Shown: in pieces, positions 3,262 to 47,353 of the stretch
How the letters are laid out: each line of letters opens with the position of its first letter
Position numbering within the stretch: position 1 is the first letter of the stretch
From: a virus
Lineage: Duplodnaviria > Caudoviricetes
Reading direction: 5' to 3' (one strand)
Length of the DNA stretch: 64,000 nt
IMG/VR virus record: IMGVR_UViG_3300038679_000357
Coordinates: 96,001-160,000 of that record
Notes under the pieces: model-generated
Database searches by the model: none
What the model was told of the DNA's origin: nothing
What the model saw: the letters and a program-made list of their open reading frames with translations, nothing else
Translations under genes and position numbers: made by a program

Positions 3262-3879
3262 TTAGTCCTCCATTGACTTTGACAACTTGTCGTAATACGC
3301 CTGCTTGTCTTTTTCATACCGTTCCTGATCTCCGCGAAACATATGGTGGTGAATGCATACCGGAATCCTGCCAATTCCGCCAACACCAGACAATTCGATG
3401 GATTGTACAACGCCTTCGTGTACTCGACCAGAAAAGAAGATTTGCTCCATCCGCTTAAACATTCTCGTCTGCATATCTGGATAGAACGGAGAAGTAAAAT
3501 ATGGGGAGTCATGATCATGGGATGGATAATGGTTCTTCCGGATCATCTGATAAGCCACTACGCCAGACTCATCAGCCATATCCATAGCCCTTCTTATAGC
3601 ATCTGTCTTTTCGCCCTCTAAGTGTTCGTCGGCGTCAAGCATCAAGATCCAAGACCTATTGCATTTGGCGATTAGGAAATTTCTAGCTGCTGAAAAATCA
3701 TCAATCCACTTGAAGTCGTATATCTCGGCACCCATTCTCTCGCAAATTTGCTTCGTGGAATCTGTAGATCCAGTATCCACTACGATCAGTTCATCGACCA
3801 CCCTACATACGGAAAGTATGCTGCGTTCGATATATTTTTCTTCATTCTTGAGTATATAAGCCAATGATATTCCACTCAT
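3262..3879 (-). CDS. GT2-family glycosyltransferase (beta-1,4-glucosyltransferase-like), 205 aa
   Basis: KNEE...VVDTGSTDST...WIDDFSAARN...LDADE and FSGRVHE motifs. Confidence 0.9.
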   Translation of the reverse strand: MSGISLAYILKNEEKYIERSILSVCRVVDELIVVDTGSTDSTKQICERMGAEIYDFKWIDDFSAARNFLIAKCNRSWILMLDADEHLEGEKTDAIRRAMDMADESGVVAYQMIRKNHYPSHDHDSPYFTSPFYPDMQTRMFKRMEQIFFSGRVHEGVVQSIELSGVGGIGRIPVCIHHHMFRGDQERYEKDKQAYYDKLSKSMED

Positions 3880-5396
3880 TGCAGAAGTCCTACAACTCTA
3901 TTGACAGCGCTTTTCCAAGTATATCTATCAAGAACCTCTTTACGAAGACGATTAGCCCGTTCCGCGACAACTTCATTTCCAGATACGACCATCTTCATGT
4001 GCGCAGATGCCTGCTCTACCTGCTCCATTCCAACTCGCCATAACTTCTGACCTTGATAAAAATACGAAATTGCAGACAATTCCTGTGGGCAATCCTCAGT
4101 TCCAGTACACTCTACCACAAACGAATTATCACGCCTAAGATACTCCGACATACCTGAATGAAGGCATGATATTACAGGCAATCCACGGGCAGCAGCCTCA
4201 ATCTGCGTTAAACTAAACCCCTCTCCTCTCGAAAGGTGAACGTAACAATCACAGGAGTCATATAACGATGGCATATCATCGATAGGAATGACGTTGTTAC
4301 ACAGCAATACTTGCGGAAGATCAGTTTTTCTATCCAAGTAGCGATCGAGAGTACCCTTAACAGTGTCAATGGAATACTGCGTCGAAATCACGAGACATAC
4401 ATCGTCTTCTTCATGAAATGACCTTACGAACGATTTAATGATAGCGTCGTATCCTTTTCTTAAATTCCACTGAATCACCGTCAAAAACTTAAATTTACCA
4501 ATACCATCAGTTGGTGGGCGACCATAAACACTTTTACATGTCGATAGATCATAGGATCTTTTTGATGACGAATATAATTTTTCATCAATCCCCAAGGGGA
4601 CTACTTTAATTGGTTTTCTAACACCTCCATTCCGAAATAATTCAGCGTTAGCTACAGACGGAACCCATACCTCATCACTATATGTATTGCAATAACGAGA
4701 AAAATCACCATGCAGCGTCGATGTCTCCATCATTGTAAAAAATATTGATTTTCCGCCATGGCGTCCATGCGGCATTGGAGTAAATGCATAAACTTTCGGA
4801 TATCGACTATCATGTGGGCGTAATATAGATAGCGAGCGAAGAAGTTTTTCCGTTTTCTTATCAACCTGCGCTACAGTAGGGTAAATATCTGGTATTGGAA
4901 CAAAACCACGACAAAAAAGACGTGACACAATCTCGCGGTTCATATTGGCGTATCCACCTGCATCAAGAAAAGAGCCCCACCATCCAACTGGTTTAGCAGA
5001 AGAAAAAAAGCGTCCATCGCGCATTTCTTCTAAGGTAGAAGCGTCAATCTGCCTGATGCTAGGAACCATCTCCTCAAACAAACGATGAAAATTACCATCA
5101 ACTCGAAACTTTGCTTGCCCCATTCTTTTTTGCCGAATAATATTACGAGATTTATCAACTTCACTTTTCGGCAATAAAAACAGGCGACCATCAGTAGATT
5201 CAGTTCCTATTGGAATATCATCCTCAAATATAATTTTATAGCCTGGATGAGCTTCAGGAAAATCAGCAGTAATGGAAGAAATTGATACCCCAGGATACAT
5301 CAGAGAAACGTCAGTAGTCGAAAAAACAGTCCCTCTTGCATTATCGTTGGAAACAGCTAATATCCGCAAGGAATCAATTTCATATACGACGAACAT
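3876..5396 (-). CDS. GT4-family (GT-B) glycosyltransferase with N-terminal extension, 506 aa
   Basis: FLTVIQWNLRKGYD and SRGEGFSLTQIEAAARGLPVI (E-x7-E) motifs; ATGA overlap with the downstream GT2 gene. Confidence 0.9.
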   Translation of the reverse strand: MFVVYEIDSLRILAVSNDNARGTVFSTTDVSLMYPGVSISSITADFPEAHPGYKIIFEDDIPIGTESTDGRLFLLPKSEVDKSRNIIRQKRMGQAKFRVDGNFHRLFEEMVPSIRQIDASTLEEMRDGRFFSSAKPVGWWGSFLDAGGYANMNREIVSRLFCRGFVPIPDIYPTVAQVDKKTEKLLRSLSILRPHDSRYPKVYAFTPMPHGRHGGKSIFFTMMETSTLHGDFSRYCNTYSDEVWVPSVANAELFRNGGVRKPIKVVPLGIDEKLYSSSKRSYDLSTCKSVYGRPPTDGIGKFKFLTVIQWNLRKGYDAIIKSFVRSFHEEDDVCLVISTQYSIDTVKGTLDRYLDRKTDLPQVLLCNNVIPIDDMPSLYDSCDCYVHLSRGEGFSLTQIEAAARGLPVISCLHSGMSEYLRRDNSFVVECTGTEDCPQELSAISYFYQGQKLWRVGMEQVEQASAHMKMVVSGNEVVAERANRLRKEVLDRYTWKSAVNRVVGLLQ

Positions 5397-5404
5397 CTAT
5401 CCAC

Positions 5405-8400
5405 CTATTTGTATGTGGATACGGAAGCCTTTCGGATAATGGAGACGGTTCCTCCGTCCACGGAAACGTTATCCTCGCTTCCCGCTCTCTCTTCTATAAT
5501 ATACACCGCGTTCAAGTCTCCCTTCATCGAATATTCTGCAACGGCATCTCCATACACAGTCGTAAATACAATGTAATCACCAACATGAAACCTCCCAGAC
5601 ATCTTTGTAGACAAAGAAATTGAGGATATTTCACGGAAGGATCTATTACGTATTGTAATCATATTTCCGTTAGTTGTATACCATAAGTCTACCTTAGCTC
5701 TAATTACCCCAGAATGTTCGAATGCGCTTCCGGCATCAAAGGAATACATGGAAGAATAAGTTGAATCAAGCCTGTGAATTATGTATGAAGATCCATCCAG
5801 CACACAAACATACAATGAATCATCCATGTGATGGAATGATGTTGGCGTTCCAGACACCCCTAAAACAACATTTCTTTCGATCAAAGTAAGATTTTCCCGC
5901 AATGTTGAGATAAAGATCCCAGAAGAAGAGTAGCCTAGAACATAAATAACGGTATTATGGACGGTTTGATCGACGAGAACGTCTTCCGCTGTGCCAATCA
6001 AATTATTATAAACCACAGATTGCTTTGCAAGAGTTTTTGATGGCTCCATGCCCAATTCTGAAAAATCAGTTTCCAAAGCCGAATAAACTGGTCTTCTGTC
6101 ATTATCATACATGTATGATCGGTCTACGGGACGATACATTGTTCCAATATAATCCAGAGACGCCGATGAGGGACCTTTGTTCACGATATCTACTGCGATA
6201 CGGAATAACGGTCGCATAGATAGCGTAACGGTAAATACGTCGGACAAAGGTTGCGCCTGTCCAAATACGAACGTTCCAGAATTACTGTCATAAGTGTATT
6301 CTCGATCTGAAACAATACTGCCGTATTTATCAGATTCCGTCACCCGGTACATTTCTACAACGTAATCCTGAGACCAACCGCCATACGCGGTGATATAGGT
6401 CGCTGCATCTTTCCTTACGAGCAATTCATTAACTCTACTTAGAACGATGCCACCATAGCCATCCTTCATTGCTGGTTGCTGATCTGACCAATACCATTCC
6501 CGTCCAACGTCGTCTGAATGTTTCACTCCATATGATACAGATGATGTAACTGGAACATTTCCATGGTGAGAAAAGATAATCTCGCCAACGTATCCATCCT
6601 TCCCATCATTTACTGGTATAGGCTGGAACATCAAAGTATAACGACGTGGTTCGTAATATTCGTACGCGGCAGAAACAAATGATGGCGACTCGAACGTATC
6701 TGGATCTCCACGGAAAGAAACGCGATACTCCATATACCTATTCACCATTCCGTATGATGACAAATCAAAATCTGTTCCAACTCCAATATCAATCCATTCT
6801 CCGAAATTCACCCCATCAGAACTAAAGCGGATTGAAAAGGTCAACCCCGAAACCCCAGGTGTCGTAACCATAAACGAAAGACGATCAAACAACTTTTCCT
6901 CACCAAGATCAATGATATTTGAATACCACCCAGTGACTAAATCAAAAGAGGGAGAATTAACAATAGAATCAACAACATATCCTGGAATAGAAACTGCATC
7001 CTCCACGTCTGAGACTTCCACTGGAAATCCGCCAAGAGAAGATGTAAATTTACGTACAACAAGATCATCATACGGTTCAGTGCGTTCAAGTTTCACAAAA
7101 ACCAATTCAACTGGATCTTCTGCATCTACCGATTTCAACTCAGACACAGCTTGATCATATGATAAATCTGAGTTGGATTCACCTCCGTCAGAAACAACAA
7201 CAACAACTTTCTTTGACGATGATAAATCCTGAGAAAAAGTGACCATTCTGCGAGCTGCTAATGCCAACGCATCATTCAACCTACTTGGTCCGATTTCAGA
7301 GAAGCTTTCAAGAACCTTATTGAAAATCAGCTCGTCAGTCTCTGGTTTAACGATCAATGATGGCGACGAAACAGAAGGGAACCAATGCATATCGCTTGTT
7401 ACAAGTGATTTATCTATGGCTTTCAATTCTTCCGGAAGACCTGGAATGAATGCTTCAGTCTTCAACACGGCTATAGTGCGAGGAGCATTATCATTACCGA
7501 CGACAACAATCCCATTATCATCTTTCTCTGTTTTAGATTCAATATCGTTATACTCATAAAAGCCAAAGTCTGCAAAAATACGAGTTCCATCCTCTACCGG
7601 TATATCGCCACCAGAAGTTCTAATGTAAGCATGAAATAGCATTGTATATCCTGGATCATATCCATGCATTCTGGCAGAAAATCCTGAAACAATCTTCCCG
7701 TCAACATATTGTGAAGTTGTCGGAATAATCTCTAATACATATCCCGAATCTCCTCCGGTGGTAGCAACTCCAGGGTAGCTAAATGCATAGTTATCCAACG
7801 ACCTGGATATACGAGAACCATCAGGTAAAGTTTTTCCATCGTCGTAATTAGCTTGAGCCTTGACTGCAAAAGCAACCGTTTTATTGGAAATTGGACCAAT
7901 ACCGATCACGGCAACCGACTTTACTATATGTGAATGAAGATTTGACACCCCGCCAGAAAGATCATATACCTCTTCAGACATCGGTGAAGTGGCATAAATA
8001 TTAACGGAATGAACGTGGTCCGGTATAGAGACGCCTTTTGAGTAGGTTACTGTACTTGTGGTAACTCCCTTTCCATTATCATCCACCGACATTTCATGAT
8101 AATGATCAAAATCAAATGAAGTTCGAAGATAATGCGTAGCAGCCTCATCAAAATCAAGAGAACATACAGTCCTATCCTCAAATCGTGAAAACTCAACGCC
8201 TTCCTTCGTTATCTTAACTGATCCAACGTCAAAAGAAACCATCGGTAAAGGATTATCGGAACGACCAACAATAAAGGTATCATGCCAAGTGAGTTCAGCT
8301 ACTGCAACATAACGACTTACCCCATCTCGCTTTAATGGATGGCTATAGGTATCATATCCTGAAGACTTGGGAGACTCTCCATTCGGCTGTTTTCGCCAAT

Positions 8401-11400
8401 CATTCTGCTGATACTCAGACTTATCTACTGGCTCAATATACACAGTAACGCCAAATGGCTCTACAAGATTGACTCTCGGTTTAGGTATTTTTGCCTGACC
8501 GCCACTTATTGTTTCAGTCAAGAACGATACGGTGTCGCTCTCTATTCCTATTCCAGACAAACCATATTTGCGAGATTTAGTGAATAAAGAAATAAATGCA
8601 CATTCCGGAGAATTACACGGATTTGGATCGTCTGGATCTGATTCACGATATGGCGGACGACCGATAAACATGTTAGAGTATAAGCGGTTGCTAACCCAAC
8701 CATAGGGAACGTCAGTATCGTGCTCAACTGGACCTTCAGAAGGCTCTCTACTTGACCATTTTGGCAAGCGTGTACCAACAGTCAATCCAGAACCACTATA
8801 AACCACGCCCATTGCAGACTGAATCAAGTCATCAGCAACTGTGTCAATATAAGGGAAATCTCTAAAAGATGACGCGGGAAGGTCTCCATTTATCGTAACA
8901 TAATCTATTCCGTCTGCCCATATCCTTTTCTGTCCGTGATAAACAGAGGATGGATTTGTATTGTAGCCAGAAGCGTAAAAATAGAAGTTCCCGCCAGACT
9001 GAGCTTGTTCACGCATCCATTCTACTTGACCTTCTTTCTTGGCGGTGAAGCCACGATATGTGCAAATAGCAGTTATCCCCTCAAACTCCCCCCTACCATT
9101 ATCTTCTAATGCGGCAAGACCGGTTGGCGCAGGTATCGGCTCATGAGGACCGAGAAGAACACCGTCAGCCACGCCTGACTCAGTTTGACTGACGGAAGGG
9201 GACATTTGCGTGCTTGTTGCCTCAAAATTAACCATAGTGCCATCAGAAACTGGCTCCACAGCCTTCCACGATACGTAAGCGCCTATATTATGCCTCGTTT
9301 CACCATCCGCCACGGATGGACCCATACCAGACATAGTTATAACAACTGGATTCCTATAATAAATTTTCTGCTTATTAACGACCTTAGATATACCATCATC
9401 CATTTCGAAAGATGCGTGGATATCAAGCAATGCAACTCTATTGAGAGGAGGTAGAGTAATTGTTGCAATTCCAGAAACAACTTTAACGGTATACTGCACA
9501 ACGTCAAGAAGATCATTGGCGAGAAGTGACTGTTCAGTAGAAATAGTGTACGGATCATCGTCATTAACTGTGCTAAAAACATTCTCTCCACCACCCATTG
9601 CCTCATTATCTCCGCACCCATCCAAGTCTGGAAGATCGTCATCTGCAGCTAATCTAGTATCTATTGTTCTTCGCGCATCATAAATTGCTACTCTCAATAC
9701 ACCATTTGCCGGGAAGCCCTTGTCTGTAATATTGTATGTAATGTTTATGTCATATGGATCTGTGGCGTAAGTCCCAGGAACAATTTGATCGTAAGTTGAT
9801 ACAGCTCCATCTTCATCGACTGATTGACACTGCTGAAAAACTGTTGTTCTATCCACGGCATTGGTGATATATATCGGACAGGCGAAATAAATATCAGTAC
9901 CCTTAACAAGGATAACTGCATTCCGATTACCAGAATCATCAAACATTGTAACCACTGGATTGACAGTATATTTTTTAGCGAGATACCTTACAGTTGATAA
10001 ACTTCCTATTTGCTGCTCTGTCAATTCAGTTGCGAATGACTTCATTTGAGTTGATGCGTACCCACCAATCGATTCCACCTTATGATCCATGGTGAAATCA
10101 GGAATGCCGTCATAATATACTGGCTCTTCAACAACCTCGTTTGACGTCGAAGATGACTGTACATAATCGGAGTCATCCACTCCCTCTTTCATCTCCCCCT
10201 TTTCCATATCTTCAATCGCCTTGGCGCGAACTTGATCTCGTTCACTTGGGTTGAACATCGACTTAGCCAAAGCATCTCGAACTGATGAATTTTCAAACCT
10301 ATCTTCTGTTATCGGACAGACTCTAACGGCGGACCATCCATTTTTGGTCATAATCTCTACTGACGAACGCTTCACTCTTGTTGGATCTGTATTGTAAAAA
10401 TCAGGATTTGCAGATGGATCTACCTGGGGTGGATCTAATGGGTCCAACAACGAAGGATCGTGAAGTGCGTGCGTGAAAATCGGTGTGATATCAACAAGGT
10501 TTACCGTCATCGGAAGTTTTTCCGACACATTGACATCTACTTTAGCGCCAATTTCCGTAGATGGAGTTACAATAGCTGCATGTTTTGACATCAAAAAAGA
10601 CGACGGCATCGCATCCGCGATTCCGACCACTCCAGATTGATCGATAGATGATACCGTTGTTGCATGATAGGCTACAGTCTCTCCTTCAGCAACTTTGTAG
10701 GCGTTCCGGTCATCATCAATAATATCAATGGAATCACCACGCTTTATAGATGAAGCATCCTGCGGAGATATATATATGATTGTTGCCCCAGATGAAGCAT
10801 CTGAAATTAAATAAATTGTTTTCTGTTTGGCTGCATCGCTATTCATCTCTTCAGTTGGCTCTTTATCAACATAAAACTCTACTATTGTTCCGTCTGGAAG
10901 CGGCTCTCCTTCTGCATCAACTGTATCAATTTCCAGGAGTGCGGTTTCATCCATGAAGTACAATTGATAGAATTCCCACGATGACATCGGCTTAAACACC
11001 CACTCTATATGAGCGCCATTTGCAGTCTGAACAAAAAATACAATATCAGATCCATTAAGTGGATCGACTACATAAAATTCAAACGCATCAGTTTTATCCC
11101 ATCCAGTAAGTGATTGAGCAGTATACCTTTCGATCATCGCCCCATTAGAAAGTGATGTCCCGATATATACTTCAGGATCAATTACTATTGCAATCGAAGA
11201 AACATAAGTGATATTTTTCGGCTGCTCAATAGAAGAAATAGAAGATATTCGAACTTGATCATCAACAATAAACGTATGCTCACCAACAACTATAGAGGTA
11301 TCACCTGGCTGAATATCTGATTCTGGTCGAGAAACAGTATAATCGTTAGAAAATCCGTAAACATACCTAATAGCATCCCTTCCAGATGAAGTTGAAACGG

Positions 11401-12589
11401 ACAAACACGCTTCTCCATTTGGTCCTTCGTCTGCAGTAGATATTGACGGAGAGTCAGATTGCCATACTGGTTTCCACCCATCATCTACTGTTTGAGTGCG
11501 AAATTCCGACCAACCGGTATCAAATCCATACACAAGATACTTTGATGAGGATAAACTCCTGAATCCGTACGCGACAACTCCTGTTCCCATATGAGCACGG
11601 ACGTCTCCTGATAACGGATTCCCAAAGGCATCCACTCCTGTTAATGCAGTGTAGTCGTCAACACTTACTGTTACTCCTCTCAACTTACCACTCATAGATA
11701 ATGATAACGGAGATAATGGTCTAGCTCCAAATTGTACAAAATCATACGTTACGTTACGAGGAAACTTAGACTTGAAAGACGACATAATTCCATTGACAAT
11801 CTCTTTTCTAAGAGAGAAGCGATCATTCCACCCCATACTTCCAGACGAATCAACTACATAAGATAAATGCAAATCCATTGGAATTAATCTAATTGAGTCA
11901 ACGGATGGTGATGGATAATATGGACCAGGACCAGAAACGATCATCGTATTGTAAAATGTTCCAGAAGACAAAACGCTTTTTCCAGATTGACTGCCAGACG
12001 AAAGTATTGCTGGCGGGGTAACAATCATGTGTCCAGGCATTGGTCCAATTATTTCGGAATAAGCGTCAAAATCTGAAGCAGCACGAACAGTGCGATGAGC
12101 CCCTAAAATATCCTCCCATGTAGAGCCTCCGTCAGAACTCATGGAGCAACCGTTATCTCCGTCAACTATAGCATAAGCCCAAGCGGCATAGTTGTTTTCA
12201 TCACCACCAGACTGCCACACAGTAAGACACAATCCATTTTCAGGAGTAGTCATCTCTGGTATGGATAAGTTAAATTTATACCAGTCATTTTGCTGTATCG
12301 CTGAAGATAAAATAGAAGCAGAAGATAAAATTGAACCAGTTGGATGTCCGTTTTCGTCAGACTCCCGCAATTCCGCCCACATCGTAAAAGAAAGATCATT
12401 ATCTGATCTAGCTCTGATGAGATATATGGCTACCCACCCGACAGATATCAACTTCTGCACAAATGACAATTTCTGAGATAAAATTCTTGGAGTAGATGGG
12501 TTAAAATTGACAGCAGAGTGACTTGTCGCAACGAATTTTGTTGCGGACCAGCCCGATACACCGTATTTTCCTAAAACTTCGTTGGACAT
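5405..12589 (-). CDS. Giant distal-tail/adhesin protein with a split vWA domain, Ig-like repeats and a triple-HxH module, 2394 aa
   Basis: DSSGS MIDAS at aa 247 and GPSRLNDAL...VVVVSDG at aa 1767-1801. Three P-x-x-DGT-x-[VI]-x-x invasin/Big_1-like motifs. Located in the tail gene block. Confidence 0.7.
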   Translation of the reverse strand: MSNEVLGKYGVSGWSATKFVATSHSAVNFNPSTPRILSQKLSFVQKLISVGWVAIYLIRARSDNDLSFTMWAELRESDENGHPTGSILSSASILSSAIQQNDWYKFNLSIPEMTTPENGLCLTVWQSGGDENNYAAWAYAIVDGDNGCSMSSDGGSTWEDILGAHRTVRAASDFDAYSEIIGPMPGHMIVTPPAILSSGSQSGKSVLSSGTFYNTMIVSGPGPYYPSPSVDSIRLIPMDLHLSYVVDSSGSMGWNDRFSLRKEIVNGIMSSFKSKFPRNVTYDFVQFGARPLSPLSLSMSGKLRGVTVSVDDYTALTGVDAFGNPLSGDVRAHMGTGVVAYGFRSLSSSKYLVYGFDTGWSEFRTQTVDDGWKPVWQSDSPSISTADEGPNGEACLSVSTSSGRDAIRYVYGFSNDYTVSRPESDIQPGDTSIVVGEHTFIVDDQVRISSISSIEQPKNITYVSSIAIVIDPEVYIGTSLSNGAMIERYTAQSLTGWDKTDAFEFYVVDPLNGSDIVFFVQTANGAHIEWVFKPMSSWEFYQLYFMDETALLEIDTVDAEGEPLPDGTIVEFYVDKEPTEEMNSDAAKQKTIYLISDASSGATIIYISPQDASSIKRGDSIDIIDDDRNAYKVAEGETVAYHATTVSSIDQSGVVGIADAMPSSFLMSKHAAIVTPSTEIGAKVDVNVSEKLPMTVNLVDITPIFTHALHDPSLLDPLDPPQVDPSANPDFYNTDPTRVKRSSVEIMTKNGWSAVRVCPITEDRFENSSVRDALAKSMFNPSERDQVRAKAIEDMEKGEMKEGVDDSDYVQSSSTSNEVVEEPVYYDGIPDFTMDHKVESIGGYASTQMKSFATELTEQQIGSLSTVRYLAKKYTVNPVVTMFDDSGNRNAVILVKGTDIYFACPIYITNAVDRTTVFQQCQSVDEDGAVSTYDQIVPGTYATDPYDINITYNITDKGFPANGVLRVAIYDARRTIDTRLAADDDLPDLDGCGDNEAMGGGENVFSTVNDDDPYTISTEQSLLANDLLDVVQYTVKVVSGIATITLPPLNRVALLDIHASFEMDDGISKVVNKQKIYYRNPVVITMSGMGPSVADGETRHNIGAYVSWKAVEPVSDGTMVNFEATSTQMSPSVSQTESGVADGVLLGPHEPIPAPTGLAALEDNGRGEFEGITAICTYRGFTAKKEGQVEWMREQAQSGGNFYFYASGYNTNPSSVYHGQKRIWADGIDYVTINGDLPASSFRDFPYIDTVADDLIQSAMGVVYSGSGLTVGTRLPKWSSREPSEGPVEHDTDVPYGWVSNRLYSNMFIGRPPYRESDPDDPNPCNSPECAFISLFTKSRKYGLSGIGIESDTVSFLTETISGGQAKIPKPRVNLVEPFGVTVYIEPVDKSEYQQNDWRKQPNGESPKSSGYDTYSHPLKRDGVSRYVAVAELTWHDTFIVGRSDNPLPMVSFDVGSVKITKEGVEFSRFEDRTVCSLDFDEAATHYLRTSFDFDHYHEMSVDDNGKGVTTSTVTYSKGVSIPDHVHSVNIYATSPMSEEVYDLSGGVSNLHSHIVKSVAVIGIGPISNKTVAFAVKAQANYDDGKTLPDGSRISRSLDNYAFSYPGVATTGGDSGYVLEIIPTTSQYVDGKIVSGFSARMHGYDPGYTMLFHAYIRTSGGDIPVEDGTRIFADFGFYEYNDIESKTEKDDNGIVVVGNDNAPRTIAVLKTEAFIPGLPEELKAIDKSLVTSDMHWFPSVSSPSLIVKPETDELIFNKVLESFSEIGPSRLNDALALAARRMVTFSQDLSSSKKVVVVVSDGGESNSDLSYDQAVSELKSVDAEDPVELVFVKLERTEPYDDLVVRKFTSSLGGFPVEVSDVEDAVSIPGYVVDSIVNSPSFDLVTGWYSNIIDLGEEKLFDRLSFMVTTPGVSGLTFSIRFSSDGVNFGEWIDIGVGTDFDLSSYGMVNRYMEYRVSFRGDPDTFESPSFVSAAYEYYEPRRYTLMFQPIPVNDGKDGYVGEIIFSHHGNVPVTSSVSYGVKHSDDVGREWYWSDQQPAMKDGYGGIVLSRVNELLVRKDAATYITAYGGWSQDYVVEMYRVTESDKYGSIVSDREYTYDSNSGTFVFGQAQPLSDVFTVTLSMRPLFRIAVDIVNKGPSSASLDYIGTMYRPVDRSYMYDNDRRPVYSALETDFSELGMEPSKTLAKQSVVYNNLIGTAEDVLVDQTVHNTVIYVLGYSSSGIFISTLRENLTLIERNVVLGVSGTPTSFHHMDDSLYVCVLDGSSYIIHRLDSTYSSMYSFDAGSAFEHSGVIRAKVDLWYTTNGNMITIRNRSFREISSISLSTKMSGRFHVGDYIVFTTVYGDAVAEYSMKGDLNAVYIIEERAGSEDNVSVDGGTVSIIRKASVSTYK

Positions 12590-12612: not shown

Positions 12613-12622
12613 ATTGTACAAC
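12613..12622 (-). promoter_or_regulatory. Promoter-motif variant GTTGTACAAT
   Basis: Immediately after the upstream stop, 23 nt before ATG 12589. Confidence 0.5.
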
Positions 12623-13161
12623 TACGCCGGAAGTAGTGAAATTTCAGCGACAACATCTCCAATATGGGTAGTCGATCCACTACTGGTTGTTACGCCAAAT
12701 TGAAACTCTGTACCAGCGGGATAAGCTAGATTACCAAGATCAAAGTTAGAAACGTTATTTACAGCAGAAACAGATAGCGTAACCCCAGAAAACATAACAT
12801 TCGGATCAGAAGATGTACCAAGTCTTACTACCGGAGAAGCCAATAGTGGATCAGATACTGTTTTATGGCGTACAAATAATTTTGATAGGATTGCTACGGC
12901 TCCGGATGGAACTATATAAATCGACGTCTGCGCCGCAACTGTCATATCAACAGATAGTATGTTTTGACTAGAAACATTTCCATGATACGGAAGTAAATTC
13001 CATTCAGTTGAATCATCCCCAATCTTAATTCGATAAAACATCGGTCCAAAGCCATTGTCCTCAATACCAACTTCTCCAAACAAGAGAATAGGATTTGTCG
13101 AGGTCCACTGTGCCGACGTTCCACGCCTTACTTTAATTCTTGCAATTTTGGTCTCTGACAC
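12622..13161 (-). CDS. Tail fibre-related protein with an Mtd_N (major tropism determinant N-terminal)-like domain, 179 aa
   Basis: IKVRRGTSAQWTSTNPILLFGEVG...KIGDDSTEWNLLPY matches the Mtd_N/hyaluronidase N-terminal signature; GTG start. Confidence 0.8.
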   Translation of the reverse strand: MSETKIARIKVRRGTSAQWTSTNPILLFGEVGIEDNGFGPMFYRIKIGDDSTEWNLLPYHGNVSSQNILSVDMTVAAQTSIYIVPSGAVAILSKLFVRHKTVSDPLLASPVVRLGTSSDPNVMFSGVTLSVSAVNNVSNFDLGNLAYPAGTEFQFGVTTSSGSTTHIGDVVAEISLLPA

Positions 13162-13175
13162 GTACGCACCATATG

Positions 13176-16100
13176 TTATGGATTTCCACCGTCTATCTCA
13201 ATATCCCAGATAACCGTATCTGGAAATCCTCCGTCAAACACATCTTCCAATACGGAAGTCGGCAATCCTCCATCAAGAATATCCCACGGCTCTTCCGAAT
13301 TACTAGATGAACTAGACGAAGAACTGAATGAACTACTGCTCGAAAGACTTGAACTACTACTCGAAAGACTTGAACTTACACTGGATGAACCAATCTGTCT
13401 GCTATATTTGTCAGATTGATATACATAATACCCAGAAGAAGTAGAAAAAGCCACTTCAGACGAAGAAAGGACGTAAACTCCACCAAGATATGAAGGAAGA
13501 GGGTTATATTGTTTTGAGTCTTCAAGATCAATAGCCTCTGTCCAAGTATCTCCGTTATCAAATGATGAATATATTCGATGACCAGAGCCAACGGCGTATT
13601 CCATTCCACCAACAAATCCGATACCATTAACTTCCTCAATTAACGGAGAAAGGTAATGTCCATGCGTTAAGCTGTCACCTACCGCATCCCTAGACTCAGA
13701 CGAAACAATTGAAAATTCTCCAGCCTTAATAGAATGAGTATGACTCCACTCCGCGTTTTTCCTAATAAACACAACGTTCGATACCGAAGGAGCGCTTATC
13801 ACTTGAGTGGATGGAGGAACTTGAATGATCCCAGGAAATACCGCAAGGACATCAAACTTATACGAGAGACCATCAGTACAGTCAATTTTCATTACATCCC
13901 CGGAAGAAGCCATAGAGCTGTCACTCACACCCACTAAGGTGTCACCATAGGCAATCCCTGACGTAACTGTTGTACTTCCGGCTTCATACTCAAAATAATA
14001 CGCTCTTGCGTACGAACCATTATCAATGGTAAAATCACATGGAAGAGGCGAGGATAACCCGACGATAGATCCTGAAACGGAGACAACTTCTGATAAAAAT
14101 GACGTGCGATTAGAAACAACTTCCAATTTACACCCGACAACAACACCAAATACGGATACTAATTCTAATTCATTTGCCCCCTTCAACGCATCGTATGATA
14201 AAAGAGAGTTAGATGAAATGAACTTACTGTCATATTCCATGGCGACCGTCTTTCCAAAACCAACTGTAGACAAATGGATTCGGAAACCTACACCAACCTT
14301 ATTCCCATCATTTCCTGAGATATCAATTTTCCCATCCTCTCGTGCCACGAAAATAGACGAAGAACTATGACGAACAACTCTCAGCCGATAGCGCACAAGA
14401 GGTTGTTTTGGATCGTATGCCGTCAGCCAAAATCCTGTAAATAAATCAGTCTCTGATGACAGCCATGGATCAACCAACTGCCATGCTCCAGAAAGCAATA
14501 GTTCTACCTCAAACGAGGTGGAAGATGGTATCGCTGTTATATCACCGATAATTGGTCCTGAAATAGGAGTGACTTGATGCCGATGTCCATTGTTCCAAGA
14601 CGAAAAAACATTCGAAAAAGAAGGTATTGACGACAAGGGGACTATAGAAAGACTAAAGTCAATTCCAGAGTACAGAGTGTTAAAAACAGAATACGACGTT
14701 AACTCTCCGTCAACTCCAATTGCCTCATACGATTCTCTAACGCTAATGATTGTTTCATCATTTGATACAATCTGTAATTTTCCTCCATCGGGAATAGAAT
14801 CTACGCCGTTGAACGACAATTGATTTCCAGACAACTCATTAACCTGTCTCTGAGAATCAAAATCAACCACAATTGGTATATTTCCAACAGAGTTAGTGCA
14901 ATAAACTGTCGCTCCGACACGAAGAGTGGAAATCGTATCGTATCCTTCGGGAGCTACTACTTCAGATGATAACTCAATAAAATTGGCGGTATTTTTAACG
15001 ATCTTGTAAACGGCTATATCAGATCTTGGCAATCCATATTCAGACTCCTGTGGTTCAACAACAAGGGAACCTCCATTAAGTAGGGACGGCTGCATCGTTC
15101 CCACATAATCAACATACAGCCTGATTCCAGATCCAGACAAGCGAAATCCGTATCCATTAACGGCTGATGACGCATCTCCAGAAACAACCATGTCAACAGT
15201 GCCATCAGGTTTGGACGCCGAATTTGAGACGACTGTAAGAGGTGGTATAGACGCAATAAACGATATTTTCCATTCCACAACCTCATTTACTACAACCGCC
15301 TTAGACAATTTAGCAGACAACCTATAGGAAGAACTTAACCCTGGCGACGGAACGACATACTCGACTACACCAGAAATACCAACGCTCTCTATAACGGCTG
15401 CATTTCCAATCGCCGAGATCCTACCATCCCTACGCCTGTCATAAGAAAATGTGCCACCTGAATCCCATTTCAAACCGTCAGAAGTTCCAACATGGATTCT
15501 TCTTTGACGATCCTCTCTAATGCAGTTCATCCTATATGGCAGAACGGTAAACGTTCCACCAGACGATGACATCATGGATTCCCCAAATACGACAATTGTT
15601 GACCCGCTATTTGAGACAACTCTCGCTTCACTCCCGCCGACTGCCATCATCCTTCCAACAAGACTTCCGTCCGGAGGCGGTCCAAGATTAAAATCAACCG
15701 CAACAGATACATTCAAAGCGTCAGTAATCGACATTGAAAGAATGTTCCCGGTCAGTGAAACTGAAGAGAATAATTCGTTCCACCGATTTCCAGTCCCAGT
15801 ACACACATAAACTCCAGAACGATTTCCGTCAGCAGATTTGGCACACGCTGCGATAGATCCGTTCATAAGCAATCCGTATGAAACTACAGTCATATCGGAA
15901 AGTTTATCGCTAGTTGAGTACAAGCTTCCCTTCAGCCATGACACCCCCTTATCATCACTATACGACAAGAATCCATCACCAGATACAATCAGTGTATTTA
16001 CAAATGAAGGATTTGACGGATTGACTACACCGTCCCATTTGTTCCACCAATATGATGTCCCATCATCAGACCTTATTGCTCCCCACCTGGCAGCAATCAC

Positions 16101-25714: not shown

Positions 25715-27091
25715 TTAGGGAGTAGAACTGCTGGAACTGCTAGAGCTACTTGAGCTACTAGAAGGAACTGCTGTGCCAGAATACAACACAGTCAATTTAT
25801 CTCCTTCCTCAAGCAATCCATCAAGACCAAGAGATGTCCACTTCAGCCTATCAGTAACTACACCGTCCATAGTATAGTCATCGCTGTAATATTGTGCAGG
25901 AGCACCTTTGACAAGAAGTATGACATCCTCAGCGGCAGACGGAACAATCGACAAGGTAATGTATTTATTAGAGATGTCGGTTGCCGTAAGAACAAACTGC
26001 TCAACAACCGTCCCAGTAAGTCCAGCGACCGCACTGTCGATGTAGTCCTTGTTTGCCGCATCTGTCGCAGCCAACGGAGTTCCAACCTTGATAGTACCAC
26101 TGGCTGTAGCAAAGTCATAAGTCTCAGATAGATCCAACTCAGTTGCGCCAACTCCGTCAGCCTTAATTCTGAGGCGACCACCGTTACCAGTATCACCTTC
26201 GATTGAAGTGTCATCTACTTTAACCGCAACGCCATTTGCAGAAACATTAATAGCGGTAGCGAGATTTGCACCACCAGTCGAATCAGCAACAACAGATACG
26301 ACATAGCTGGTAATATCAATACCATTTCCTTCGGTATACGGAACAGTCTGACTGAACTGAGTAAATACAATCGGATCGGTATCAACAGATATATCACCGG
26401 CTGCTACTACAACAAAACCACGACCAGCGTTGAAAGTGCCCTGCTCAACAAACGTAAAGTTTCCACCAGATACCTCACTGGACGGAGAACCATCAAAGTC
26501 AGTTGCACGGGTCAAAACGGTAGCGCCAACACCACCGACTGTCGTAACAGTATAAATACCATTATGAACGTTTGATCCGTCTACACCATTTTTGATCAAA
26601 ACGCGCATCGTCGTTGCATCAAGATCAACTCCGTCAATCGTGGTAAGACCAACAGCAGGAGCGGTAAGAGTTTTTCCTATGCCACTTCCAGAAGGTGTCC
26701 ATGCACCAAGGTCAGATACCGTTGCTACCCTAACCGACTTTTTAGGATCAAGACCTGCCGCAATACCATCAGCATACGCCTTGTTGACAAAATCACTTGC
26801 ATTAGTTGGAACAACTGAAGATTGCGGCAATGTTGTGGAGAATGTCCACAACTGGGTGATGGTCTCAGTTTGGTCCAATCTGGCAATATAAGCGCTATCA
26901 GCCAGTTTCGAAAAACTTATGCTTCCCGCCAACTGCCCGTCAGTAACGCCAAGTAGCTTAATATTCAAACCATCATTAGTCCTTTCGAGAGAGCCACCAG
27001 TCGAAACAACTTTTACTCGCAGCGCGCCAGACCCATTATCTTCCAACGACTGTGAATCTTTGTTGATCCATTTAGAGTTCATCAACGCCAT
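25715..27091 (-). CDS. Putative tail/head fibre protein with C-terminal poly-Ser, 458 aa
   Basis: NKAYAD.IAAGLDPKKSVRVAT...TIDGV...RVLIKN...NGIY...TRATDFD...FVEQGT is a common phage fibre domain; GAGGT RBS. Confidence 0.75.
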   Translation of the reverse strand: MALMNSKWINKDSQSLEDNGSGALRVKVVSTGGSLERTNDGLNIKLLGVTDGQLAGSISFSKLADSAYIARLDQTETITQLWTFSTTLPQSSVVPTNASDFVNKAYADGIAAGLDPKKSVRVATVSDLGAWTPSGSGIGKTLTAPAVGLTTIDGVDLDATTMRVLIKNGVDGSNVHNGIYTVTTVGGVGATVLTRATDFDGSPSSEVSGGNFTFVEQGTFNAGRGFVVVAAGDISVDTDPIVFTQFSQTVPYTEGNGIDITSYVVSVVADSTGGANLATAINVSANGVAVKVDDTSIEGDTGNGGRLRIKADGVGATELDLSETYDFATASGTIKVGTPLAATDAANKDYIDSAVAGLTGTVVEQFVLTATDISNKYITLSIVPSAAEDVILLVKGAPAQYYSDDYTMDGVVTDRLKWTSLGLDGLLEEGDKLTVLYSGTAVPSSSSSSSSSSSSSTP

Positions 27092-42100: not shown

Positions 42101-43098
42101 TCCTCAACTTTTGCCTGCGCCTCAAGATAAGATGAAATCAAGGCTGCATCGTAATATACGGAAGTCCACGAGGATGAGGTGGCTTCTATCGCCTGCTCCC
42201 TTGTGGTGTACCCAAAATTAGACGATACAATATATTCTCTACCAAAAATTGTCTCTGTATATGCAGTTTTAGGGTCTTCCATCTGTAACGGTCTATCAAG
42301 GATGAAAAATGAACCAGCCAAATCTGGGAATAAACCTGACTCCACCTCAGACTTGAATTCAGAAACGTCGGCAATAATTCCAACATCAGATGAGATTGAC
42401 TTTACAGGAAACACCCTGTTATTAACTACTGGTTTGCCAGTTGAAGCATCTGTAGACTTCCAATAACACTTAATATTGAGCGTACCAATATCGGACGCCC
42501 CCATCGTAGAATTTTGGTCAAGCAATGGATTGATCTTGACGGTCAGTGATGAAATACTCACAACAGACGAAGAAACAGTTCCATACTGAAGAACAAATCT
42601 CTTGAAAGAACACTGATGACGATGTTCGAGAAATGGTATGAATGACACAATATTTGTCACAAATACAGAACCGGTTGACATGACAAATGCCAAAAGCATT
42701 AGATCAAATCCATAATGCACGGATTCTTTATATATGTCATTCAACTGGTAATGGAACGTAGCGGGGCGAAATGACGAATATCCAGAAGCAGTATTTGATG
42801 TCGTCAGTAGGTATTGACCGGTTGACAGCCAATTCCAATATCTCCCGCGCATATCGAGAATGGTCGTGTAATTATATCCAACAAGCAAAGCGCTCGGTAG
42901 CGGAATGACTGGACCAATCCACGCACCGACAGGATATTCTCCCGATAGGATATCCAACCTTGTTGCTATTGATTCTGATGGAACGTTTGTCTCAGATATA
43001 GCATAATCCTTGGACAAATTTCTCTCGTATGTCGTGGGAGTCCAGGTTCCCATCCCAGGATAGGTCGGATAGTTATCATATTGTCCTAGTTCAGCCAT
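39196..43098 (-). CDS. Large virion protein at the distal-tail (Dit) position, ~1300 aa
   Basis: Lies between tape measure and hub; C-terminal Asp-box-like motifs (SSDGSSW, TTEGVDW). ATG at 43098 (8-nt overlap with the TMP end) is preferred over TTG at 43146. Confidence 0.55.
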   Translation of the reverse strand: MAELGQYDNYPTYPGMGTWTPTTYERNLSKDYAISETNVPSESIATRLDILSGEYPVGAWIGPVIPLPSALLVGYNYTTILDMRGRYWNWLSTGQYLLTTSNTASGYSSFRPATFHYQLNDIYKESVHYGFDLMLLAFVMSTGSVFVTNIVSFIPFLEHRHQCSFKRFVLQYGTVSSSVVSISSLTVKINPLLDQNSTMGASDIGTLNIKCYWKSTDASTGKPVVNNRVFPVKSISSDVGIIADVSEFKSEVESGLFPDLAGSFFILDRPLQMEDPKTAYTETIFGREYIVSSNFGYTTREQAIEATSSSWTSVYYDAALISSYLEAQAKVEEEKASSSKDTQVVAESNGKAAKYKSEAKAVLTNEPVYDGKSIAVKGASVSVDGVEIVVSDVVLRVMKELGASNVSISLEITSTTLSRHNFGQGTQVGNHVLFTKTGQLEFSAYKVVAHERSGVFTLSTESASSMDSLYDSLSVDGSFRILSGKLWKISDICTNKSGISAPTNTSLDRGLFDVQVESAYAKRIDDTGKISEDDKIPLRVVLKCKFTDRNYYTLDYLRERFLNDLPTDASSTVVRGWKKYNGWRFNRQGNESTKSFSIIGITENRDGIDSSDSGYLYISLDVEAIEEPSVDEYGGNWWISFDDLHPCRSPFNYIATPFLGLNAFLTDIGTNAKIMFDGIYVGSPLSMSVPRNASIRLIEDNPVLFPNISGVDFSLIKVSTAKAYRYVAYMNDDLDEAEYILYERYDDASKAMFIRKGRLGFLNDMNEFLIHHDAGTTDVVATVSGDGSTTQTISVPPLSINNKDVVSIVVRKAMPDRHPVDDKGEYRNTLWRMYQSDRLLGIESTSGKENTIFTRAAGKNTVSGVEDIPFYSNAEYFSGGREVEYRIAGNNSSDDPLAGDGSRYRFVPVLNMDRENSKFASAIVKTVPSEKVVRNAFSRHVFPVNGKAVICVEQPVISYLPSDSSMIDEVRIVPGTESKRESENILPPVGYADIEQNGAFILNSTDSFGSFSSGYFFRRGTGDVLDKTTMWRYPFLAVPNINQCAFSKCGKDIDVVGYSVVENESGDGILAIVHSQVNMINSFGRPVYAFYSKGTPVLLSSSVSLSRNIVIGDGAIEGVDPFVVVEGLSVHPLSIASSGKYKFIVFRTGTVLAWALSSSDGSSWSFYNDISLTPSNYVSSSPSLVVWGDWLLMCYIKDKIELRMKKISIPSLVKFHSRYNSNVVSSTDPSAAARKLREELQVELNNTFDVKITDTFDQQVSFQIGKSGLMRVVFFDNKGLVNAATSTTEGVDWNLSPVNF

Positions 43099-47290: not shown

Positions 47291-47353
47291 ATGGAAAGCC
47301 TGCAAAGTGAATCAATCTATCGATTTATTTCAAATGATCAGAAAGAAATCCTT

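What the first reader, a model, noticed from the sequence alone, without database searches (positions are those of the whole stretch)
7100..11870. A single vWA domain split by a ~1,470-residue insertion
Seen: the first half of a vWA fold (LSYVVDSSGSM at D247, helix, TYDFVQFG at ~288) has no matching second half nearby. The second half (GPSRLNDALALA at 1767, KKVVVVVSDG at D1801, VELVFVKL, KFTSSLGGFPVEV) appears ~4.4 kb downstream with no first half of its own. Together they give a complete MIDAS (D247, S249, S251, S1769, D1801). The insert holds Big_1-like DGT repeats, two small beta domains and an HxH module. Inference: a giant adhesive arm loops out of a metal-dependent vWA core, and folding could act as a latch or conformational switch at the tail tip. 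I know of no vWA insertion this large.
Basis: partly seen in the sequence, partly recalled or inferred. Interest (0 to 1): 0.8.

Follow-up and report, generated by a model that had tools for sequence, protein, structure and literature searches.

The report
Giant insertion splits phage vWA domain
A 2,394-residue tail-region protein of a 255-kb phage carries one metal-binding vWA adhesion domain whose two halves lie about 1,450 residues apart; dozens of related giant proteins keep this layout, and in some relatives the halves sit in two separate genes.

Summary
The gene at window 5405-12589 (minus strand, 2,394 aa) has the first third of a vWA domain at aa ~238-302 (strand b1, DSSGS, helix a1, strand b2). 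The rest (helix a2 to the last helix, with S1769 and D1801) is at aa ~1748-1882. Pfam, PDB profile searches and hhalign place the two pieces on complementary, non-overlapping parts of one vWA domain.

AlphaFold2 models of each piece with its flanks show no local completion. Sixty-six representatives of 50%-identity clusters (63 of them 2,100-4,800 aa) carry both pieces 1,419-2,411 aa apart, with every MIDAS residue conserved.

Relatives with an uninterrupted vWA exist (P0139, P0159). In a sister clade the protein is cut into two overlapping genes inside the insert, at two different points, so each gene product carries one half.

Best reading: one discontinuous vWA fold that closes the base of a giant multi-domain loop in a tail-fibre-module protein, with an intact metal site.

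Not shown: physical pairing of the halves. No family member is short enough to fold both in one job. This is a new variant of a known kind.

The parts
5405..12589 (-). Whole gene, 2,394 aa (P0001). It is the last giant gene of the tail and fibre module.
   Evidence: ORF list and translation. Nine full-length homologues at 44-68% identity. Neighbours are an Mtd_N tail-fibre gene upstream and GT4 and GT2 glycosyltransferases downstream. The tape measure gene is at 43091-47305.
11879..12589 (-). N-terminal region, aa 1-237, before the vWA N piece. Fold unknown.
   Evidence: No Pfam match. Only aa 200-237 were modelled, as two strands.
11684..11878 (-). vWA N piece, aa 238-302: strand b1 (240-248), MIDAS loop, helix a1 (260-275), strand b2 (280-288), then a presumed b3 stretch.
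   Evidence: Pfam profile positions 3-49 and 5-49. AF2 secondary structure. hhalign to columns 9-65 of the uninterrupted relatives. PDB profile hits to the starts of the vWA modules of S. sanguinis PilB and complement factor B. Coordinates checked.
11837..11851 (-). MIDAS motif D247-S-S249-G-S251.
   Evidence: Invariant in 10 of 10 close homologues. D-x-S-G-[ST] in 65 of 65 family representatives that cover it (Ser in 64, Thr in 1).
7349..11683 (-). Insert, aa 303-1747 (~1,445 aa), mostly beta-rich where modelled, with no Pfam family.
   Evidence: Gap between the two HMM matches. No Pfam hit, including no intein or Hint hit. Both ends of the insert are conserved across the family.
11150..11353 (-). 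Small beta-barrel inside the insert, aa 413-480.
   Evidence: AF2 model. VIA Z 8.8 (rmsd 1.6, 65 aligned) to phage Mystique tail tube 103-170. Z 8.5 to LKA1 tailspike gp49 283-360. Z 7.5-7.7 to phage Chi tail tip, the Klebsiella phage P560 depolymerase and the JBD30 baseplate.
7928..8104 (-). Three invariant HxH pairs, aa 1496-1554, inside the insert.
   Evidence: H1496, H1498, H1525, H1527, H1552 and H1554 are invariant in 10 homologues. Function not studied here.
7550..7744 (-). Beta-sandwich domain with the conserved DGT motif, aa 1616-1680. It is the last globular unit of the insert.
   Evidence: AF2 model with block pLDDT 71-92, all strands. D-G-x-R is nearly invariant in 65 sequences.
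7394..7480 (-). Long beta-hairpin, aa 1704-1732, leading back into the vWA domain.
   Evidence: AF2 strands at model positions 105-116 and 123-133, pLDDT about 76-89. The W-x-P motif after it is nearly invariant.
6944..7348 (-). vWA C piece, aa 1748-1882: a2, a3, b4 (1795-1799), a4, b5 (1828-1834), a5, b6 (1855-1859) and the last helix.
   Evidence: Pfam PF00092 positions 66-130. PDB profile hits: ITIH4 vWA E 4e-5, integrin alpha1 I domain 68-164 of 192, VWF A3 79-149 of 187. AF2 plus VIA: all top 50 hits are vWA, Z 9.3-10.8; Rpn10 residues 56-192 of 192 aligned. hhalign to columns 88-227. Coordinates checked.
7283..7285 (-). S1769, the MIDAS residue at the position of the canonical Thr.
   Evidence: Aligned to the G-G-T Thr of ITIH4. 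Ser in 65 of 66 and Thr in 1 of 66 representatives.
7187..7189 (-). D1801, the MIDAS Asp at the end of strand b4.
   Evidence: Invariant. Aligned to the T-D-G Asp of ITIH4.
5408..6943 (-). C-terminal domains, aa 1883-2394, conserved together with the vWA C piece.
   Evidence: Profile positions ~680-960 are matched by most of the 210 hits, including the uninterrupted relatives. In distant relatives this region has weak F5/8 type C matches. No Pfam match in P0001 itself.

Best explanation
The gene encodes a giant protein of the phage's tail and fibre module. One MIDAS-bearing vWA domain is written in two pieces. Piece 1 (aa ~238-302) supplies strand b1, the D-x-S-x-S loop, helix a1, strand b2 and probably b3. 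Piece 2 (aa ~1748-1882) supplies helices a2-a3 with the Ser that replaces the MIDAS Thr, strand b4 with the MIDAS Asp, and the remaining strands and helices.

A ~1,445-aa multi-domain, largely beta-rich module is inserted in the b3-a2 connection. Once the whole chain is made, the two pieces pack into one six-stranded alpha/beta vWA fold. That fold pins the two ends of the insert together like a clasp.

From textbook vWA topology the b3-a2 connection lies on the face opposite the metal site, beside the domain's own N and C termini. The metal site therefore stays free to take a carboxylate from a ligand: a host-surface receptor or a partner tail protein.

Shown here: complementary homology of the two pieces, absence of local completion, family-wide conservation of all MIDAS residues, uninterrupted relatives, and two-gene relatives.

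Inferred: that the pieces physically pair, where the insert emerges, that metal is bound, and what the ligand is.
For: (1) Complementary matches. Pfam profile 5-49 versus 66-130. hhalign to the uninterrupted relatives at columns 9-65 (97.1%, E 7e-11) and 88-227 (97.6%, E 3e-12). An HMM made of the two joined pieces aligns as one colinear domain to P0139 aa 634-844 at 49.1 bits, against 21.7 and 32.9 bits for the pieces alone.

(2) Solved vWA structures match only the back part. ITIH4 E 4e-5, and integrin alpha1 I domain 68-164 of 192. In VIA all top 50 hits are vWA at Z 9.3-10.8 with 126-146 residues aligned of ~190. Rpn10 aligns from residue 56 to 192.

(3) No local completion. After b2 the N-side model has only low-confidence coil and then beta domains. 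The C-side model has b4-b6 plus helices, preceded by a beta-sandwich and a hairpin, with no b1-a1-b2 unit.

(4) Sixty-six cluster representatives (each standing for a 50%-identity cluster) carry both pieces with gaps of 1,419-2,411 aa. D-x-S-G-[ST] is present in all 65 that cover it, G-x-[ST] in all 66, and [ST]-D in 64 of the 65 that cover that position, with A-D in the other.

(5) In a sister clade the two pieces are in two overlapping genes. L010 has a 1,546-aa gene with the N piece (59 bits) and the 1,511-aa P0111 with the C piece (73 bits). L008 and L013 are similar, with two different cut points. These gene pairs align end to end on the single-chain relatives P0105 and P0108.

(6) Tail context.
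Against: Pairing of the halves was not modelled. The smallest gap in the family is 1,419 aa, so the two halves with the insert span well over the 1,200-aa limit, and joined constructs are not accepted by the folding tool.

Each half alone is below Pfam's gathering score.

Some VIA alignments start at model residue 41-44 and align about 13-15 more residues. One or two local strands may therefore sit beside b4 in the truncated model. I could not inspect coordinates.

A covariation test between b1 and b4 columns was uninformative (Neff 55, p = 0.26).

No metal-binding or ligand data exist. Ser replaces the canonical MIDAS Thr.
Confidence: 0.78

Rival explanations
1. The halves pair in trans rather than in cis. 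The N piece of one chain complements the C piece of another chain in an oligomeric fibre. The split vWA would then be an intermolecular clasp, a domain swap, that builds the fibre.
For: In relatives the halves are on two different polypeptides encoded by overlapping genes. L008, L010/L011, L013 and P0106's contig show this, with two different cut points. Trans assembly must therefore work in that clade if the fold forms at all. With a ~1,445-aa tether, cis and trans pairing are both topologically possible.
Against: All 66 representatives carrying both pieces, including the whole close clade of P0001, keep both pieces on one chain. Nothing here shows oligomerisation. Cis pairing is the simpler default for a discontinuous domain.
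Confidence: 0.15
2. These are two independent, degenerate vWA-like units. Each half is completed by divergent local sequence, for example the IVVVG... stretch and the hairpin at aa 1691-1732 acting as a cryptic first half for the C piece.
For: From about aa 1692 to helix a2 is roughly 60 residues, the right length for b1-a1-b2-b3. Some VIA alignments extend upstream to model residue 41-44.
Against: AF2 models that stretch as a long two-strand hairpin with no a1 helix. The best structural matches cover only about 70% of vWA templates, starting near template residue 56. After b2 the N side has no alpha/beta continuation. The joined HMM finds exactly two complementary hits in P0001 (hmm 4-67 and 68-202) and no extra copies. 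Conserved S1769 and D1801 would have no partner without the D-x-S-x-S loop.
Confidence: 0.04
3. The split vWA is an evolutionary relic. The insertion destroyed the domain and the motifs are leftovers with no metal site.
For: Both halves score below Pfam thresholds.
Against: All five MIDAS positions are kept in 64-66 cluster representatives (each standing for a 50%-identity cluster), while mean column identity of the halves is only 34-44%. Relics do not stay invariant at that divergence.
Confidence: 0.03
4. The vWA fold forms as proposed, but its metal site docks a phage partner rather than a host receptor. One candidate is the acidic tail after the poly-Ser tract of the neighbouring 2,349-aa protein. 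Another is an assembly ATPase of the MoxR type.
For: The neighbouring giant protein ends in a Ser tract followed by an acidic tail with three D-G-G repeats. MIDAS sites bind carboxylates (established for integrin I domains). MoxR-vWA pairs are proposed virion assembly chaperones in some jumbo phages and an archaeal virus (PMC7824862).
Against: No MoxR-type AAA_3 gene is present in the 255-kb genome. The acidic-tail idea is pure inference.
Confidence: 0.2

Closest known systems
Canonical vWA / integrin alpha I domains (Pfam PF00092, PF13519; e.g. integrin alphaM and alpha1 I domains, VWF A3, ITIH4, Rpn10)
   Same: Same fold elements in the same order and the same five-residue metal site layout (D-x-S-x-S, Thr/Ser, Asp). 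The C piece aligns to these structures at Z 9.3-10.8.
   Different: Those domains are about 180-200 contiguous residues. Here about 1,445 residues (up to 2,411 in relatives) sit between b3 and a2. Ser replaces the MIDAS Thr.
Gram-positive pilus tip adhesins RrgA and GBS104 (vWA domain with two inserted arms; PMC7893114)
   Same: A MIDAS-bearing vWA domain of a surface adhesin that tolerates insertions and sits in a nested multi-domain architecture.
   Different: Their arms are short hairpin or loop elements that flank the metal site and shape the binding trench. Here the insert is a chain of whole domains making up about 60% of the protein, and it is inferred to leave on the opposite face. There is no evidence here of sortase signals or isopeptide domains. 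They are not homologous beyond the vWA fold.
Uninterrupted relatives P0139 and P0159 (1,108 and 1,113 aa). NCBI names P0139 'MAG: vWA domain-containing protein [Nitrososphaerota archaeon]'.
   Same: Homologous in the vWA domain and in the two domains that follow it (profile positions 570-956, E 1e-9). A glycosyltransferase gene follows the gene, as in the window.
   Different: Their vWA is contiguous, about 211 aa. Pfam VWA_2 positions 3-106/107 match P0139, and PF00092 is precomputed for P0159. Their N-terminal parts are unrelated.
Two-gene relatives (L010 in NCBI GCA_020047435.1, L008, L013) and their single-chain counterparts P0105 and P0108
   Same: Same two vWA pieces with intact MIDAS residues, a giant insert and the same downstream domains. 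Glycosyltransferase genes lie downstream in L010 and L013.
   Different: The chain is cut inside the insert into two translationally coupled genes with ATGA, TAATG or TTGA overlaps. The cuts are at two different points, corresponding to about 1,561/1,604 and 1,940/1,954 in P0105. Their inserts contain Laminin_G_3 and Kelch propeller domains not detected in P0001.
Other discontinuous catalytic or binding domains with large nested inserts, such as the Cas9 RuvC domain interrupted by the REC lobe and HNH (from my own knowledge, not tested here)
   Same: A single fold assembled from sequence segments hundreds of residues apart.
   Different: A different fold and function. Those inserts are several hundred residues, against 1,400-2,400 here.

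Membership tests
vWA domain (Pfam clan vWA-like; PF00092 / PF13519) | Score at or above Pfam's gathering threshold | tested here: not met
   PF13519 scores 22.6 bits against a cut-off of 27. PF00092 scores 18.7 bits (N piece) and 17.9 bits (C piece) against 23.8. Each match covers only part of the profile, as expected for a split domain. Simply adding the two PF00092 scores (36.6 bits) would pass, but that is my arithmetic, not a tool result.
vWA domain (Pfam clan vWA-like; PF00092 / PF13519) | MIDAS residues D-x-S-x-S, Thr/Ser and Asp in the right loops | tested here: met
   D247, S249, S251, S1769 and D1801. They are invariant in close homologues and conserved in 64-66 representatives. They align to the MIDAS Thr and Asp of ITIH4.
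vWA domain (Pfam clan vWA-like; PF00092 / PF13519) | Six-stranded alpha/beta fold (b1-a1-b2-b3-a2-a3-b4-a4-b5-a5-b6-a6) | tested here: inconclusive
   The C piece was modelled as a2 to the last helix with b4-b6 and matches solved vWA domains at Z up to 10.8 over about 70% of the template. The N piece was modelled as b1-a1-b2. The assembled fold could not be modelled because the gap is at least 1,419 aa and the limit is 1,200 aa.
vWA domain (Pfam clan vWA-like; PF00092 / PF13519) | Homology to proteins with an accepted, contiguous vWA domain | tested here: met
   hhalign gives 97.1% and 97.6% to complementary parts of the P0139/P0159 domain. P0159 carries a precomputed PF00092 hit. P0139 matches VWA_2 positions 3-106/107 and is named a vWA protein by NCBI.
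Phage tail fibre / receptor-binding protein | Gene lies in the tail module, downstream of the tape measure and baseplate genes | tested here: met
   Tape measure match at 43091-47305. Tail-fibre PHROGs at 25715-27091 and 12622-13161, and Mtd_N. The gene is the last large gene of the block. The same order is seen in L006.
Phage tail fibre / receptor-binding protein | Presence in the virion and binding to a host receptor | not testable with these tools
   No proteomic or adsorption data. The only structural hint is a small beta-barrel at aa 413-480 like those in tail tube, tailspike and baseplate proteins (Z 7.5-8.8).
RrgA/GBS104-type pilus tip adhesins | Two short arms inserted beside the metal site, with the vWA nested in IgG-like domains that carry sortase signals | not tested
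   Architecture recalled from PMC7893114. P0001 has one giant insert at a different loop, and no Pfam match to pilus or Cna-type domains appeared. I do not file it here.
Intein or other mobile insertion | Hint/intein splicing domain or homing endonuclease in the insert | tested here: not met
   No Pfam family at E up to 0.5 in any piece of the insert. Both ends of the insert are conserved across the family as ordinary protein sequence.

The most novel reading that the evidence does not exclude
The two vWA pieces are a natural split-protein clasp. They associate non-covalently, in cis or between chains, and complementation of the fold, possibly locked by the metal ion, is what assembles giant tail-fibre proteins. 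In the two-gene relatives it joins two ~1,500-aa polypeptides. This would be fragment complementation of a vWA domain used as an assembly device, comparable in logic to donor-strand complementation in pili.
Probability: 0.25. Interest if true: 0.8.

Novelty: new variant of a known kind. Interest (0 to 1): 0.6.

Why it matters
Discontinuous domains are common, but here about 60% of a 2,394-residue protein (and up to 2,411 residues in relatives) is threaded through one loop of a ~200-residue adhesion domain. The arrangement has been kept, with its metal site intact, across at least 66 sequence clusters.

The natural series makes this a ready-made system for three questions:
- How far apart can the parts of a fold be and still find each other?
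- How does a half-domain wait through the synthesis of 1,400 residues?
- Can a vWA fold be reconstituted from two chains?

That series runs from an uninterrupted domain, through small inserts and giant inserts, to two separate genes cut at two different points.

For phage biology it flags a conserved metal-dependent site in the host-recognition module of a poorly known group of jumbo phages. It also explains why automatic annotation misses the domain: each half falls below Pfam thresholds.

Tried and rejected
- Phage databases. Megablast and tblastn of the gene against 50,697 phage records found no match. PHROGs gave no family.
- Shorter relatives sharing the N terminus. A word-index search restricted to 550-1,750-aa proteins found none.
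- Shallow 10-sequence profiles of each half against the PDB gave only weak vWA hits. The 65-sequence profiles were needed.
- A family member short enough to fold both halves in one job does not exist. The smallest gap is 1,419 aa.
- Covariation (MI with APC) between b1 and b4 columns of 64 joined sequences was uninformative: Neff 55, no enrichment, p = 0.26.
- A single-sequence PDB search with the P0139 domain found nothing significant.
- Structure search with the N-side model was dominated by the small beta-barrel at 413-480. The 50-residue b1-a1-b2 unit is too small to score.
- A MoxR partner is absent from the genome.
- An intein or mobile element in the insert is not supported by Pfam.
- Assembly chimera or frameshift as the cause of the split is rejected. 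The same architecture recurs in 66 independent cluster representatives and in a syntenic 500-kb contig.
- 'Big_1-like' repeats are not supported by Pfam for P0001.
Full report
**What is there**

The finding lies in one ORF, window 5405-12589 on the minus strand, encoding 2,394 aa (P0001). The window is part of a single 255-kb viral contig, estimated 97% complete.

All large genes around it are on the same strand and form a tail module:
- a tape-measure match at 43091-47305;
- tail-fibre families at 25715-27091 and 12622-13161, the latter with an Mtd_N domain;
- two glycosyltransferases directly downstream at 3262-5396.

P0001 is the last giant gene of the block. The same order is kept in a 68%-identical homologue on a 500-kb contig.

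**Checking the observation**

Pfam finds only vWA, in two sub-threshold pieces that do not overlap in the profile:
- PF00092 positions 5-49/174 at aa 245-291;
- PF00092 positions 66-130/174 at aa 1757-1821;
- PF13519 positions 3-49/107 at aa 244-291.

Nine full-length homologues (44-68% identity, 2,187-2,726 aa) keep D247, S248, S249, G250, S251, G1767, S1769, S1800 and D1801 invariant.

A language-model feature search placed aa 1690-1900 among vWA clusters at score 0.92. This is a lead only.

**A large family with the same split**

A profile of aa 1200-2394 searched against 1.84 billion cluster representatives gave 210 hits. I then searched those proteins with HMMs of each half. Sixty-six representatives (63 of them 2,100-4,800 aa) carry both halves, separated by 1,419-2,411 residues.

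Among them:
- D-x-S-G-[ST] is present in all 65 that cover it;
- G-x-S/T is present in all 66;
- [ST]-D is present in 64 of the 65 that cover it, with A-D in the other.

Overall column identity of the halves is only 34-44%. A metal site whose ligands come from both halves is therefore under selection.

**Are the two pieces one domain?**

With 65-sequence profiles, the C piece hits solved vWA domains only over their back part:
- ITIH4, E 4e-5;
- calcium-channel alpha2delta-1 and complement C2;
- VWF A3 residues 79-149 of 187;
- integrin alpha1 I domain residues 68-164 of 192.

The N piece hits the starts of vWA modules, namely S. sanguinis PilB 160-221 and factor B 222-266. These are marginal, at E 0.01-0.04.

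The profile search also returned relatives whose vWA is not interrupted. An HMM built from the two pieces joined in silico aligns as one colinear domain to P0139 aa 634-844 (49.1 bits). The pieces alone give 21.7 and 32.9 bits. The result for P0159 is similar.

Pfam sees VWA_2 positions 3-106/107 in P0139. P0159 has a precomputed PF00092 hit, and NCBI names P0139 a vWA domain-containing protein.

hhalign of the real, unjoined alignments gives:
- N piece to template columns 9-65, probability 97.1%, E 7e-11;
- C piece to columns 88-227, probability 97.6%, E 3e-12.

Only about 22 template columns, the b3 region, lie between them. P0116, P0135 and P0133 look like intermediates, with tens of extra residues in the same region.

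**Does either half complete itself locally?**

AlphaFold2 on aa 1600-1895 with 65 sequences gave mean pLDDT 81.9. The model contains:
- a beta-sandwich at 1616-1680;
- a long hairpin at 1704-1732;
- then a2, a3, b4, a4, b5, a5, b6 and a final helix.

All 50 best structural matches are vWA domains (Z 9.3-10.8), but only 126-146 residues align out of about 190. Matches such as Rpn10 begin at template residue 56.

AlphaFold2 on aa 200-480 with 66 sequences gave mean pLDDT 79.8. It contains b1 (240-248), a1 (260-275) and b2 (280-288). After that come a low-confidence coil at 289-319 and only beta structure.

So neither half has a local partner.

One caveat remains. Some alignments of the C model start at residue 41-44 and align about 13-15 more residues. 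A local strand may therefore lie beside b4 in the truncated model, and I could not inspect coordinates.

**An unexpected extension**

Several hits of 1,000-1,650 aa start with Met and have only the C piece. Their contigs show an upstream gene that overlaps the start codon and carries the N piece.

| Locus | Upstream gene (N piece) | Downstream gene (C piece) | Overlap |
|---|---|---|---|
| L008 | 1,241 aa, N piece at 204-263, 47 bits | P0150, 1,493 aa, C piece at 769-905 | TAATG |
| L010 (NCBI GCA_020047435.1; also L011) | 1,546 aa, N piece at 56-115, 59 bits | P0111, 1,511 aa, C piece at 766-892, 73 bits | ATGA |
| P0106's contig (no DNA available) | 1,550 aa | P0106, 1,564 aa | 8 nt |
| L013 | 1,926 aa, N piece at 60-114 | P0102, 1,095 aa, C piece at 363-485 | TTGA |

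The L010 and L013 pairs align end to end on the single-chain relatives P0105 and P0108. The cuts fall at two different points inside the insert.

In those lineages the vWA fold, if it forms, must be built from two polypeptides. This argues that the halves find each other without chain continuity. It makes a 'clasp' role plausible.

**How it most likely works**

Shown: two complementary, co-conserved half-domains with a full set of metal ligands.

Inferred:
- The halves pack into one vWA fold.
- From the textbook topology of integrin I domains, the b3-a2 connection is on the face opposite the metal site, near the domain's termini.
- The insert therefore hangs from the bottom of the domain while the metal site stays exposed.
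- The N piece must wait, unfolded or shielded, until about 1,450 more residues are made.

The ligand is unknown. A host receptor is the default for a gene in this position. A phage partner is an alternative, for example the acidic tail after the poly-Ser tract of the neighbouring 2,349-aa protein. No MoxR-type ATPase is encoded.

Nothing supports a latch or switch.

**Comparison with known systems**

The closest described case of a vWA domain with insertions is the pilus adhesin pair RrgA and GBS104. Their two arms are short hairpin or loop elements beside the metal site (PMC7893114).

Full-text searches for split, discontinuous or interrupted vWA domains, or for vWA in phage tails, found no description of this architecture. 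A review of jumbo phage genomics mentions vWA only as a MoxR cochaperone and as TerF (PMC7824862).

I rate this a new variant of a known kind. The fold and the metal site are ordinary. The size of the insertion, its conservation and the two-gene forms are not.

**Limits**

Pairing of the halves is not demonstrated. The covariation test was uninformative. The insert's domains remain largely unassigned. The host is unknown.

Noticed in passing
window 3262-5396; also L003 11349-13814, L006 16206-18367, L010 10662-13232, L013 14877-15617 and 17955-19064, L014 7806-8549: Glycosyltransferase genes (GT2 and/or GT4) lie downstream of this gene (directly adjacent in most loci) in the window and in distant relatives, including the uninterrupted and two-gene forms. 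This suggests a conserved functional link, possibly glycosylation of the fibre protein.
   Followed up: partly
window 13176-13400 (minus strand): The neighbouring 2,349-aa protein ends in a long poly-Ser tract followed by an acidic tail with three D-G-G repeats. It is a conceivable carboxylate ligand for a MIDAS site, but this is untested.
   Followed up: no
G000:C1:245664-245954 (outside the window; locus L004): A second, apparently contiguous vWA-like match (PF13519 positions 2-93/107, 24.1 bits, sub-threshold) lies in an 813-aa open frame elsewhere in the phage genome.
   Followed up: no
window 11150-11353 (aa 413-480 of P0001): A small beta-barrel in the insert resembles a module found in phage tail tube, tailspike, tail-tip and baseplate proteins (VIA Z 7.5-8.8).
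   Followed up: partly
window 7928-8104 (aa 1496-1554): Three HxH pairs are invariant in 10 homologues. The same feature was flagged by other first-stage notes as shared with the 2,349-aa neighbour.
   Followed up: no
L014 3944-4196: In this relative the two parts are separated by a single in-frame TGA, and the frame stays open for about 250 nt up to the called TTG start. This could be readthrough, a sequencing error or a recent fission.
   Followed up: no
L012 5462-5836: A Cas12f1-like TnpB fragment gene sits next to P0115. There the C-piece gene is not preceded by an N-piece gene on the same strand.
   Followed up: no
L003 (NCBI GCA_038832055.1, 29-kb contig): The uninterrupted relative P0139 is deposited in a Nitrososphaerota archaeon MAG. 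The contig carries methyltransferase, GT2-TPR and UDP-galactopyranose mutase-like genes around it. It may be a viral or cell-surface locus binned with an archaeon.
   Followed up: no
L006 (JGI 3300071653, contig of 500,031 bp): A 68%-identical homologue with identical local gene order lies on a contig about twice the size of this genome. It could be a larger relative or a concatemeric assembly.
   Followed up: no
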